Shown piece by piece: positions 41,000-43,949 of a DNA stretch of 64,000 nucleotides. The position numbers and the translations under genes were made by a program. Below the pieces are notes generated by a model. The model had not been told where the DNA came from. It saw only the letters and a list, made by a program, of their open reading frames with translations, and searched no databases. Source of the DNA: the human T2T-CHM13v2.0 reference genome, Homo sapiens; the NCBI RefSeq assembly GCF_009914755.1, contig NC_060947.1, one strand, 5' to 3'. Each line of letters starts with the position of its first letter. Position 1 is the stretch's first letter.

Positions 41000-41260
41000 C
41001 AAAATGCAGACACTTTTATTAAATAGTTTCTATGAAGAAGGACCCAACAGGCAGATGAGGTTGCAGAGCAAGGACGACTCCTTGCACAAACACAAGTGAC
41101 AGGGCAAAGTCTAGGGGCCAGCATCCTCCTGAAGAGGGCCTGGACCCAGTAGTGTTCTGGATCCAAGCCAGGGTGGATTCACTGAGGGCTTGTATCTCAG
41201 CAACTTGGGGATCAGGTCCAGGGCTCAGTAAAGCATTGCTAGTGGAAATTAAATTCCTAC
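41000..41260 (-). pseudogene. Aurora kinase C-like terminal exon with 3'UTR, disrupted
   Basis: After a pyrimidine tract and CAG: FPLAM…DLIPKLLRYKP…EHYWVQALFRRMLAP vs recalled AURKC FPLSM…DLISRLLRYQP…KHPWVQAHSRRVLPP; UTR also AURKC-like; frameshifts present. Confidence 0.85.
41015..41020 (-). terminator. AATAAA polyadenylation signal of the Aurora-like relic
   Basis: tttatt on the + strand, followed on the minus strand by GT-rich sequence (TTGTATTTGTG…TGTGTGTTTGTG). Confidence 0.65.
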
Positions 41261-41448
41261 TGATGAGGATTCAGAAAGAAGAAAACAAGTTTAGTAATTT
41301 TCCTCTATCATTGCTTCTCTGTTCCCTGAATCCATTCCAGACTCCTGTTTTCAAACATACAAGGCTCACTCTGGTTGTATCCAGACAATTCAAACCCAGA
41401 AACAATCACAGAATGGCTCCCACATAAATGCTCCAGGTCGTCCCCATT

Positions 41449-41636
41449 CTTGCAGAGTATGCCTCTGTAGGTCTAACTAGGTGAGGTAATCTTGAAGGCA
41501 GATTTCTCACCAAAAGCTCATAAGCTCATAGCACATAACCCCAATGTCAGTCAGATTCATCTCTTCACTGTAGGCTCTCCTCATGGTCATTTCAATTGAG
41601 TAGGTACTCCAGAGTCCCACACAATGTGTCTTCTTC
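41449..41636 (-). pseudogene. Aurora kinase C-like penultimate exon (activation-loop end, subdomains VIII-X), disrupted
   Basis: KKT/LCGTLEYL/IEMTMRRAYSEEMNLTDIGVMCYEL/LVRNLP…TYR vs recalled RKTMCGTLDYLPPEMIEGRTYDEKVDLWCIGVLCYELLVGYPP…TYR; acceptor AG mutated to TG, donor lost, 8-bp duplication ATGAGCTT. Confidence 0.85.
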
Positions 41637-42612
41637 CAGAATAGGGCAAAACAGTGATTAGAGGCCCCACAGATAGGGATATTTTTCTTCTCTGGCAACA
41701 AGAGAAGTGGTAGCTGCAAGACCCCAGGAAGCTCTAGATGGACTGCTCACTGAAAAAGAGGTTAAGTAACTTTTCCTGGGTTACAGAGCCCATGAGTGAC
41801 AATTTAACACCAATAGGCAGTCTGGCCCCAGAGCCCAGGCTCCCAAGTGCTACGCTAAAGGATATGGCTATAAGCCCAATGTGGGGCTAGCAGCTGTGGA
41901 GAACATGAACCGCAGAGAAAAAGGGATGTGAGTGGGAAGATTTATGACGTGGACAATGGGGCCAACTTGGTGACTCCCAGACTTTAGCATTCTGTGAACG
42001 AGCAAAAAAATCAAAACCTGGGAAACTCACAGTTATTTGGCTAGTTAAGTACATTTATACAGACATCAAGTATCATTTACTCTCCCCAGTATTTCAAAAA
42101 AGAAATGGCTTTTAAAAGCGAAAAAGGCAAAGGACATCATCTTAAAATGAAAGGCCATATTCTAAATTGAAACACACTGCATTGGCTGAACTTTTTTTTA
42201 ATTGCCAAAGACTGAGATGCTGCATTAAATGAGTGGAACAAAAACAGTGCCTAGGACAGGCTTGATGACATCATATCAGTGCTCATGACATAGTAGTTGC
42301 CTGTCCTTATGTTGGCTCACAAGAGAAGGAAGGAAAGAAACAGCTTTCTCAGGCTGTCTTTCAATGTCATTTGATGATGTGTTTGTGTACCCTCTACAGT
42401 CATATCCTTACCAGTGGAGGATGCTGGCCCATAACTTAGGAAACAAGGAACCATCCTATAGGCATAGGGAACAACTGAGATTTAATCTTTAACTGAGACT
42501 ATATTTTTTTTCCCAGAAGATACCAGGTGACAATGATGGCAAATGCCTCCTGGGTATCTGCCTGACTTACGCCCCTTCTTCAGAACAGCTCATCAACAAT
42601 GGCCCTCGCTAA

Positions 42613-42761
42613 CTGGGCTGTGGGGACTCCCTTATCCAAACAAACTGGGCCACTCCACTTCCCTCTTGTGGAAATTTAGGCAGAGGTTCTCAGACTGAGG
42701 TCAGACTGTGATGGGCATTGCAGGAAGAGATCAAGGGAAATATGGGGTCACATGTTTATTT
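42613..42761 (-). pseudogene. Possible very decayed Aurora catalytic-loop exon (HRD…DFG); a KRAB-B exon is an alternative reading
   Basis: CACAGtctGACcTCAGTCTGAGAACCT and GAAGTGGAGTGGCCCAGTTTGTTTGG align loosely to HRDIKPENL and EVKIADFGW codons, at the expected position. Confidence 0.4.
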
Positions 42762-43451
42762 CCTGCTGCAAGGACAACAGTAACAATTCCCACTTTACCA
42801 GGCTGTTGTGAGAATCACAGAGAAAATGTTCATAAGGCAAACACTGGAATGCCTGGCCCATGTGTGCACTTGGTGTGGTTTGCTACTTTTATTAATAATG
42901 CAGGCAAGTTCAACTGCAGAGAAATATTGAGAGTAAAGATGTAAAACTTGAAGGGAAAAGTAGAAGCAAGGAATCTGGGGGCCTCAGAGAGTGAGAACTG
43001 GAGCAGACAATTCTTCCCTTAAACTCACTGCAGCAGAAAAAGCCAATCAGCAGAGAGTGGCATAAGCAGGCACAAAGAAATAAGCAATGACAAGAGACCC
43101 CCCCCCTCCAAGGCCAGGACATATCTTGGTTCCTTTAAGTTCTTGACTGCAGTCTCCCATGGGGCCCAGTGGACATTCTGCACTTAGCTTCCACAATATA
43201 TCCCCATTCCCTTCCAATACATTCTCTCTTTGTTATGAATAATTTTGAATGGGATGCTAATTCTAGCCACACCAATCCCTGGTAGGAACATGGGGAGACC
43301 AGGCAGAATTTGAGACCCAAGCAAGGCAGGAGCTACCACGGGGTATGAAGGTGGGCCCCCTATGCATTCTAGCCTAAGCAAGCCTGGAGCGAGAGAGCAG
43401 AATGAAGAAAGAGTCTGCAAGTTCCCTGAGTAAGGACAGGTAAGGATCTAC

Positions 43452-43574
43452 CCAGCAAGACTGTGTTCCCAGATCTGCAGCATCACCTCCTGGTTCAAGG
43501 TCCCTCGGGTCAGGTCCTCTGGGCCAGGACCTCTTAGTAAAGATTGTGTCCACATCCTCAATGGTCACTGACCC
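43452..43574 (-). pseudogene. KRAB-A box exon, frameshifted, ZNF264/ZNF805/ZNF460-like
   Basis: tttctag|GSVTIEDVDTIFTK…DLTRGTLNQEVMLQI…TTGCTGG|gtagat; 123 bp vs the canonical 127 bp; resembles VSVTFDDVAVTFTKEEWGQLDLAQRTLYQEVMLENCGLLVSL. Confidence 0.8.
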
Positions 43575-43949
43575 CTAGAAAGTCTAAGAAAAGCAGGGAT
43601 GCCCATAGGATGGAATTAGAGCTTGGCACTCAGTCAAGGGAAAAGATCCAGGGCGAAACAAAGTCTGGATAACTGTGTACCTCCTGGGGGCCTAGCTCTT
43701 TACTAGGCTCCTGGTGGGTGGGGAGAGTGGATGCTGCCTTTGAAGGGAATGCAATTGTGTTAGAGTGAAAAGCCTTTCATGGGGGAAGCTACTGAAAAAT
43801 GGCACAAGACAATCATAAGCCCACATGCCCGGAGAAGAGCAGAGAGTGAACACTCTAGGACGTCAGAGAAAGGAGGAAATAATGACAATAATCATAAGAC
43901 CAGTAGTGGGAACGGCAGCAGCAGCTGCTGCTGTGTTTTACTTGTCCTC

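What the first reader, a model, noticed from the sequence alone, without database searches (positions are those of the whole stretch)
41000..43600. KRAB-A exon directly upstream of Aurora C-like exons: collapsed ZNF-AURKC duplicate or fossil KRAB-kinase chimera
Seen: a 123-bp KRAB-A exon with intact AG/GT ends (43452-43574) on the same strand, 1.8 kb 5' of the kinase exons. I found no C2H2 zinc-finger exon and no Aurora N-lobe (GKGKFG) exon in the window. Knowledge: its DLxxxTLxQEVML signature resembles ZNF264/ZNF805, which flank AURKC at human 19q13.43. Inference: a ZNF-AURKC block was copied here and internally deleted, or a KRAB-A/kinase C-lobe transcript once existed. Caveat: KRAB-A exons end in phase 1, which would not splice in frame to these Aurora exons as I recall their phases, so the deletion model is simpler.
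Basis: partly seen in the sequence, partly recalled or inferred. Interest (0 to 1): 0.75.

Follow-up and report, generated by a model that had tools for sequence, protein, structure and literature searches.

The report
Ancient dead KRAB–Aurora C gene fragment
A 7-kb stretch of the human X chromosome is a broken, intron-bearing copy of the front of a KRAB zinc-finger gene joined to the tail of the Aurora kinase C gene, likely copied there early in placental evolution and likely never functional, so it is a genomic fossil rather than a working fusion gene.

Summary
Window 48131→40892 (minus strand) is a DNA-level duplicate with two halves. The first is upstream DNA, intron 1, KRAB-A exon and part of intron 2 of a ZNF264/805/460/543/599-type gene. 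It joins at ~41750 to AURKC intron 5 end, exon 6, intron 6, exon 7, poly(A) signal and 3' flank (68% identity; score 20876 versus 9684 for AURKB). Both halves are equally far from their nearest human relative (K2P 0.42-0.43). That is more than ZNF264 versus ZNF805 (0.19-0.34), a pair already present in dog, so the copy likely predates the dog-human split. It is dead: exon 1 and the CpG island are gone, the KRAB-A exon is frameshifted, both exon-6 splice sites are lost, and invariant kinase codons decayed at about the neutral rate. KRAB-A (phase 1) is out of frame with exons 6 and 7. The nearest KRAB relative is the 19q13.11 gene (ZNF599), not ZNF264/805. Side finding: whale and deer-mouse protein models splice a ZNF264-type KRAB-A in frame onto AURKC exon 2, apparently by read-through at the parent locus. 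Verdict: unannotated unprocessed pseudogene relic, modest interest.

The parts
47175..48131 (-). Upstream (5' flanking) DNA of the copied KRAB-ZNF gene; approximate 5' end of the insert
   Evidence: 63% over 987 columns to chr19:37318220-37319120, upstream of the ZNF599-like gene; also colinear with DNA upstream of the ZNF304-like gene
46792..47118 (.). Alu-type insertion, likely younger than the duplicate (family name recalled)
   Evidence: RefSeq mask; about 200-320 hits per tile in 200 kb of chr19; interrupts the colinear block
46413..46457 (-). Remnant of the conserved KRAB-ZNF promoter motif (ZNF143-type site, label recalled); the CpG island and exon 1 that follow it in the paralogs are missing
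   Evidence: Best window hit of a 5-paralog promoter profile, E=0.005; CpG o/e 0.18 versus 0.84 and 0.91 in paralogs; exon-1 queries score only 1606 and 1903 with best hits elsewhere in the window
45992..46344 (-). 5' part of ZNF intron 1, including a stretch shared only with the ZNF599-like gene
   Evidence: 229 of 331 columns identical to ZNF599-like intron 1
45646..45997 (.). Alu-type insertion in intron 1 (family name recalled)
   Evidence: RefSeq mask; about 200-330 hits per tile
43575..45645 (-). Rest of ZNF intron 1
   Evidence: Colinear with intron 1 of the 805-, 460-, 543-, 264- and 599-like genes
43452..43574 (-). Frameshifted KRAB-A exon, AG/GT ends intact, 4 nt shorter than the 127-nt paralog exons
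41755..43451 (-). ZNF intron 2, cut off before the KRAB-B exon inside a MIR-like element (label recalled) that the paralogs share at this position
41745..41759 (-). Junction between ZNF intron 2 and AURKC intron 5; no long shared sequence on the two sides
   Evidence: ZNF alignments end at 41759-41755, AURKC alignment starts at 41745-41738
41636..41745 (-). 3' end of AURKC intron 5; acceptor AG reads GG
41449..41635 (-). Decayed AURKC exon 6 (activation-loop end and C-lobe); frameshifts and stops; donor GT lost
41260..41448 (-). AURKC intron 6, about 189 bp (human 188), 64% identical; acceptor AG kept
41015..41259 (-). Decayed AURKC exon 7 and 3' UTR with AATAAA at 41020-41015
40892..41014 (-). 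AURKC 3' flank running about 120 bp past the poly(A) signal, no poly(A) tail; approximate 3' end of the insert

Best explanation
This is a dead, intron-bearing duplicate in which the 5' part of a ZNF264/805/460/543/599-type KRAB gene is joined at one intronic junction to the last two exons of AURKC; it was likely copied to Xq at the DNA level from an ancestral KRAB-ZNF/AURKC neighbourhood before the dog-human split and likely never made a selected protein. Shown: both homologies, the introns, the junction, the broken splice sites and frames, and the missing exon 1, KRAB-B, zinc-finger exon and AURKC exons 3-5. Inferred: one copying event, because both halves are equally diverged from their nearest human relatives. 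Inferred: the donor was an early member of this ZNF clade lying next to AURKC, whose old upstream DNA survives today near ZNF599 and ZNF304. Favoured but unproven route (about 55% within this model): the gene lay 5' of AURKC, as ZNF264 does now, and the middle was lost by deletion or a template switch during or after copying. It then decayed neutrally and took up two Alus.
For: Intron 6, intron 5 end and 3' flank are copied, with no poly(A) tail. ZNF introns 1 and 2 are colinear with five paralogs. K2P: X-AURKC 0.426 (814 columns), X-ZNF599-like 0.420 (3533 columns), X-805/264/460/543 0.467/0.484/0.476/0.508. ZNF264 vs ZNF805 units are 0.19-0.34 in 5 segments, and a dog model holds 264-like and 805-like genes on either side of AURKC. 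AURKC is reported only in eutherians (PMC8470780, PMC5796022, passages), which sets the upper bound on age. At 0-fold sites of 69 invariant residues X differs at 29 of 127 (JC 0.27), about the X branch length of 0.30 in the mostly intronic tree; 9 indels lie in exons 6-7. Four of the five clade members examined flank or follow AURKC.
Against: The nearest living relative of the KRAB half lies 23 Mb from AURKC, so adjacency in the donor is inferred. The X+599 grouping has 95/97 support on all five blocks, but on the two blocks holding all six sequences 599 groups with 805/264 at 68/69; both trees are unrooted. Paired tests favour 599 over 805, 264 and 543 (p=0.04, 0.01, 0.0006) but not over 460 (p=0.10) or 304 (p=0.25); they are uncorrected and open to regional rate differences. 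Age rests on distances within one genome; no other mammal genome could be searched. No target-site duplication or split flanking element was identified. Codon position 2 is the least changed (25 of 109 versus 36 and 38 of 108), which constraint on AURKC alone explains but which cannot exclude a short period of selection on the copy.
Confidence: 0.8

Rival explanations
1. Circular permutation: a piece running from AURKC intron 5 through the spacer into intron 2 of a ZNF lying 3' of AURKC (as ZNF805 does today) circularised, reopened in the spacer and inserted on X, giving the swapped order without a large deletion.
For: In human the two donor-side breakpoints are only about 12.6 kb apart in this order (60331300 and 60343960). 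ZNF805 gives the longest alignment among the 19q13.43 genes (2753 columns).
Against: The DNA 5' of the X promoter remnant does not match the AURKC-ZNF805 spacer (scores at shuffle level), and none of the X outer flanks tested gave a convincing match to that spacer. X is no closer to ZNF805 than to ZNF264 or ZNF460 (150:154 and 313:314).
Confidence: 0.17
2. Two-locus templated insertion: the KRAB half came from the ZNF599 lineage at 19q13.11 and the kinase half from AURKC at 19q13.43, joined during repair of a break on X.
For: The best non-self genome hits of X intron 1 and upstream DNA are at chr19:37.31 Mb. Shared segments with that gene only. No AURKC remnant in the 10 kb held around its 5' end.
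Against: It needs a chance pairing of AURKC with the one KRAB clade that flanks it. The upstream DNA is also kept near the ZNF304-like gene in the AURKC cluster, so it can be ancestral retention. The DNA 3' of the ZNF599-like gene was not examined.
Confidence: 0.13
3. The X block descends from a once-working KRAB-A/AURKC chimeric transcription unit: either a KRAB-A-full-kinase gene that later lost exons 2-5, or a KRAB-only product that borrowed the AURKC poly(A) site.
For: The order promoter motif, KRAB-A, AURKC last exons, AATAAA is that of a transcription unit. KRAB-A splice ends and the exon-7 acceptor survive. In-frame KRAB-A to AURKC exon 2 models exist for 3 whales and a deer mouse. A phase-1 splice into human exon 7 stays open for 87 codons.
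Against: No sign of constraint on kinase codons. KRAB-A has three deletions and has lost conserved residues. Exon 1 and the CpG island are gone. The whale fusion N-terminus is that of an intact ZNF264-like gene (111 of 116 identical to a Kogia record), so it looks like read-through, not a dedicated gene. X's KRAB-A has the ED...ET-type codons of 460/543/599, not the DD...EN type of the whale fusions.
Confidence: 0.07
4. Retrotransposition of a partly spliced read-through RNA.
For: Read-through from ZNF264 into AURKC is suggested by annotation in whales and squirrel monkey.
Against: All introns between retained exons are present, the junction is intron to intron, upstream non-transcribed DNA is included, and the copy runs past the poly(A) signal without a tail.
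Confidence: 0.02

Closest known systems
Human AURKC (19q13.43; identity by PDB 6gr8)
   Same: Intron 5 end, exon 6, intron 6, exon 7, poly(A) signal and flank are colinear at 68%.
   Different: Exons 3-5 not found and no credible exon 1-2 match; exon-6 acceptor and donor lost; 9 indels; no kinase could be made.
ZNF599-like gene at chr19:37.31 Mb (name recalled; a desman ZNF599 record has its best KRAB match here)
   Same: Upstream DNA, intron 1, KRAB-A exon and part of intron 2 colinear; nearest human relative (K2P 0.42).
   Different: X lacks exon 1, the CpG island, KRAB-B and zinc fingers, and continues into AURKC instead.
ZNF264, ZNF805, ZNF460, ZNF543 (names recalled from gene order; 264 partly supported)
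   Same: Same KRAB-A clade and intron architecture; they flank or follow AURKC.
   Different: All about equally distant from X (0.47-0.51) and carry a different upstream region; none is the direct parent.
Unprocessed (duplicated) pseudogenes from duplicative transposition (general knowledge)
   Same: Introns kept, no poly(A) tail, neutral decay, later Alu insertions.
   Different: Two neighbouring genes are represented by non-overlapping halves joined at one junction, and the copy is far older than typical annotated segmental duplicates.
Predicted KRAB-A-AURKC isoforms in sperm, Rice's and humpback whales and Peromyscus californicus (P0112, P0108, P0110, P0046)
   Same: Same two gene families in the same order.
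   Different: Those join KRAB-A in frame to AURKC exon 2 and keep the whole kinase; in whales the N-terminus belongs to an intact ZNF264-like gene. The X block has only exons 6-7, out of frame.

Membership tests
Unprocessed (duplicated) pseudogene | Retains introns of the parent genes | tested here: met
   AURKC intron 6 and ZNF introns 1-2 align
Unprocessed (duplicated) pseudogene | No poly(A) tail; includes non-transcribed flanks | tested here: met
   3' flank past AATAAA; upstream DNA
Unprocessed (duplicated) pseudogene | Disabling lesions and neutral decay | tested here: met
   Frameshifts, stops, lost splice sites, 29 of 127 invariant 0-fold sites changed
Unprocessed (duplicated) pseudogene | No functional transcript | not testable with these tools
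   No RNA data; RefSeq shows no gene; promoter CpG island lost
KRAB zinc-finger gene | KRAB-A exon of the family | tested here: met
   Nucleotide profile E=5.6e-13; homology only, the frame is broken
KRAB zinc-finger gene | Intact KRAB domain at Pfam threshold | tested here: not met
   No PF01352 hit in 3 frames; paralog exons score 78-88 bits
KRAB zinc-finger gene | C2H2 zinc-finger exon | tested here: not met
   Three zinc-finger exon queries score at or below shuffled controls in the window
Aurora kinase C gene | Closest to AURKC rather than AURKB or AURKA, including non-coding DNA | tested here: met
   Scores 20876, 9684, 3808
Aurora kinase C gene | Complete kinase domain (G-loop, HRD, DFG exons) | tested here: not met
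   Exons 3-5 at shuffle level in the window
KRAB-kinase chimeric gene | In-frame splice from KRAB-A to kinase exons | tested here: not met
   Phase 1 donor versus phase 2 (exon 6) and phase 0 (exon 7); 14 codons to stop in human exon 6
KRAB-kinase chimeric gene | Purifying selection on the copy | tested here: not met
   a brief early period cannot be excluded
KRAB-kinase chimeric gene | Intact ortholog in another mammal at the X site | not testable with these tools
   No other mammal genome available

The most novel reading that the evidence does not exclude
The X block is the decayed trace of an early placental KRAB-A/Aurora C transcription unit, and the same coupling is still alive at the parent locus: ZNF264's first two exons splice in frame onto AURKC exon 2 to give a KRAB-tagged Aurora C that could bring the meiotic kinase to TRIM28-bound chromatin. 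Such products are modelled in whales and a deer mouse and are frame-compatible in human.
Probability: 0.1. Interest if true: 0.65.

Novelty: new member of a known kind. Interest (0 to 1): 0.3.

Why it matters
As a dead relic it has no expected function. Its value is historical: it likely preserves a neutral snapshot of AURKC and of its KRAB neighbour from soon after AURKC arose, so it could help date AURKC's arrival in the 19q13.43 KRAB cluster and root the ZNF264/805/460/543/599 family. The more testable lead came up in passing: predicted in-frame KRAB-A-AURKC proteins in two mammalian orders. If they are translated, a germ-line kinase would carry a repressor-recruiting domain. Six searches touching this relic or this read-through listed no paper on either by title or abstract start; the library lacks most subscription papers.

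Tried and rejected
Pfam scan of 9 single-frame translations: no KRAB or kinase family. PDB search with one wrong-frame translation: nothing relevant. I first read a GAG|GTGAGC at about 46287 as the ZNF exon-1 donor; alignment to the ZNF599-like gene shows it is intron-1 sequence, so exon 1 is absent. The element at 50403-50728 matches one upstream of the ZNF599-like gene (241 of 307), but it belongs to a repeat with several copies in the window and on chr19, so it was not counted as part of the insert. The decayed KRAB exons between ZNF264 and AURKC and after ZNF805 were considered as donor and rejected: no intronic match to X. Genome-wide searches with AURKC exon 6 protein and 3' DNA found no other AURKC copy, but they also missed this relic, so they do not exclude others. 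Circular-permutation adjacency test negative. No obvious target-site duplication on a brief look at the ends. PMC3921586 passages name these ZNFs only in a table and were not useful. No structure or complex prediction was run, since no intact product exists here.

Full report
Observation. The minus strand carries a 123-bp KRAB-A-like exon at 43574-43452 with AG and GT ends. A nucleotide profile of six chr19 KRAB-A exons hits it at E=5.6e-13, and the next hit in the window is E=0.056. Pfam KRAB does not hit any of the three single frames; the exon has three small deletions against the 127-nt paralog exons. About 1.8 kb further on, 41738-40895 aligns to the chr19 gene whose exon 6 is identical to Aurora kinase C in PDB 6gr8: 554 of 814 columns, score 20876, against 9684 for AURKB, 3808 for AURKA and at most 1731 in 100 shuffles.

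Anatomy. I held 200 kb of the 19q13.43 cluster, 10 kb more around its next gene and 10 kb at chr19:37.31 Mb. Gene names other than AURKC are recalled from gene order; partly supports ZNF264 and ZNF599. Eighty 400-bp tiles of 36001-52200 were searched against the 20 cluster loci. The block 45420-41755 is colinear with intron 1, the KRAB-A exon and intron 2 of the four genes ZNF264, 805, 460 and 543. It stops inside a MIR-like element before the KRAB-B exon, and AURKC intron 5 begins at about 41745. AURKC homology then runs through exon 6, a 189-bp intron 6, exon 7, AATAAA and about 120 bp of flank, with no poly(A) tail. Genome searches pointed to a fifth paralog at chr19:37.31 Mb. It extends the block to 48131, through upstream DNA and an intron-1 stretch that the other four lack. 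A promoter motif remnant survives at 46457-46413 (E=0.005). The CpG island and exon 1 are gone (CpG o/e 0.18). I first misread a site at 46287 as the exon-1 donor; one search shows it is intron 1. KRAB-B, zinc-finger exons and AURKC exons 3-5 were not found, and the exon 1-2 query hit only repeat or low-complexity DNA.

Donor and age. With one aligner, K2P distances from X are 0.420 to the ZNF599-like gene, 0.426 to AURKC and 0.467-0.508 to 805, 460, 264 and 543. ZNF264 and ZNF805 differ by 0.19-0.34 in five segments and ZNF599 and 805 by 0.42-0.47 in two. A merged dog model holds a 264-like gene, AURKC and an 805-like gene in that order, so the 264/805 duplication predates the dog-human split, and X, being more diverged, is likely older. 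AURKC is reported only in eutherians (PMC8470780 and PMC5796022; passages seen), which bounds the age from above. Against a firm placement: the tree groups X with ZNF599 at 95/97 on all five blocks, but on the two blocks with all six sequences ZNF599 joins 805/264 at 68/69; neither tree is rooted. Paired column tests favour 599 over 805, 264 and 543 but not over 460 or 304. The upstream DNA shared with ZNF599 is also present before the ZNF304-like gene in the AURKC cluster, so it may be the ancestral state. The simplest reading is an early member of this clade next to AURKC as donor of both halves in one event. This is inference; no other mammal genome was available.

Function. KRAB-A ends in phase 1. 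AURKC exon 6 starts in phase 2 and exon 7 in phase 0. A phase-1 splice into human exon 6 stops after 14 codons, and into exon 7 after 87 codons of non-kinase frame. On X the exon-6 acceptor reads GG and its donor has no GT, while the exon-7 acceptor is kept. Exons 6-7 carry 9 indels. At 0-fold sites of the 69 of 114 residues that are invariant in 13 mammalian Aurora B/C records, X differs at 29 of 127 (JC 0.27), about the length of the X branch (0.30) in the mostly intronic tree. There is no detectable period of protein constraint, though a short one cannot be excluded.

Route. Deletion or template switch from a ZNF-then-AURKC pair is favoured. Circular permutation of an AURKC-then-ZNF segment would explain the order with a 12.6-kb circle, but the predicted match to the AURKC-ZNF805 spacer was not found. 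A two-locus join from the ZNF599 site remains open because the DNA 3' of that gene was not examined. Retrotransposition is contradicted by the introns, upstream DNA and flank.

Real KRAB-Aurora products elsewhere. A search with AURKC exon 6 returned 1441 proteins, of which 120 were listed; 6 of the 120 carry a KRAB domain. Four join a ZNF264/805-type KRAB-A directly to AURKC exon 2 and keep the whole kinase: sperm, Rice's and humpback whales, and Peromyscus californicus (Pfam confirmed for two of them). The other two, hamster and dog, look like merged gene models. A junction search listed 11 proteins, 5 with both domains, adding only a sheep model. The whale N-terminus is 111 of 116 identical to an intact Kogia ZNF264-like record, so these are best read as read-through splice forms. 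Human AURKC exon 2 starts in phase 1, so the same splice would be in frame in human. These are annotation models; their RNA support was not visible to me.

Literature. Nine searches were run. I saw listings and abstract starts for all, and passages of four papers (PMC8470780, PMC5796022, PMC3921586, PMC4196374); no supplements were read. None of what I saw describes this X relic or a ZNF264-AURKC read-through. Pseudogene catalogues other than the RefSeq table supplied could not be checked.

Verdict. A real, unannotated, very old unprocessed pseudogene relic made of halves of two neighbouring genes. Dead, out of frame, and useful mainly as an evolutionary marker. Interest 0.3; new member of a known kind.

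Noticed in passing
Protein records P0112, P0108, P0110 (whales) and P0046 (Peromyscus californicus): Predicted AURKC isoforms with a ZNF264/805-type exon 1 and KRAB-A spliced in frame to AURKC exon 2, keeping the whole kinase. In whales the N-terminus is that of an intact ZNF264-like gene. PMC4196374 (passages) says rodent Zfp264 lost its reading frame, yet the Peromyscus KRAB-A scores 71 bits, so it may be kept for the fusion or come from another ZNF.
   Followed up: partly
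P0011 (Saimiri): A plain AURKC protein is named 'zinc finger protein 264 isoform X5', which suggests the annotation merged the two genes through shared transcripts.
   Followed up: no
L011-L012 (chr19:60310000-60325400) versus L015-L016 (60351680-60366877): The regions downstream of ZNF264 and ZNF805 are an old tandem duplicate. A decayed KRAB-B-like exon lies at 60321110, 6 kb 5' of AURKC, and a decayed KRAB-A-like exon at 60359202. No AURKC coding remnant was found in the ZNF805-side copy.
   Followed up: partly
window 44102-44235 and 42766-42897: Two copies of a 134-bp stretch inside the relic are 93% identical, far more than the relic's age predicts. ZNF264 also has related stretches in both introns, so this may be later gene conversion or a local duplication on X.
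   Followed up: partly
G000:C19:37290678-37290849, 37234098-37234201, 37332099-37332221 and 60654721-60654915 (all minus): Further chr19 stretches related to this ZNF's intron 1 or upstream DNA; they may be more relics near ZNF599 and another clade member (ZNF550 by recall).
   Followed up: no
G000:C1:2066106-2066367: A 262-bp stretch on chr1 is 87% identical to DNA upstream of the ZNF599-like gene, a much younger dispersed copy.
   Followed up: no
window 10348-11395, 5700-5994 and 1682-2235: Plus-strand matches at 62-75% to DNA upstream of ZNF264, to the AURKC-ZNF805 spacer and to ZNF264 intron 2. They are opposite in orientation to the relic and not colinear with it; probably old repeats, not checked.
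   Followed up: no
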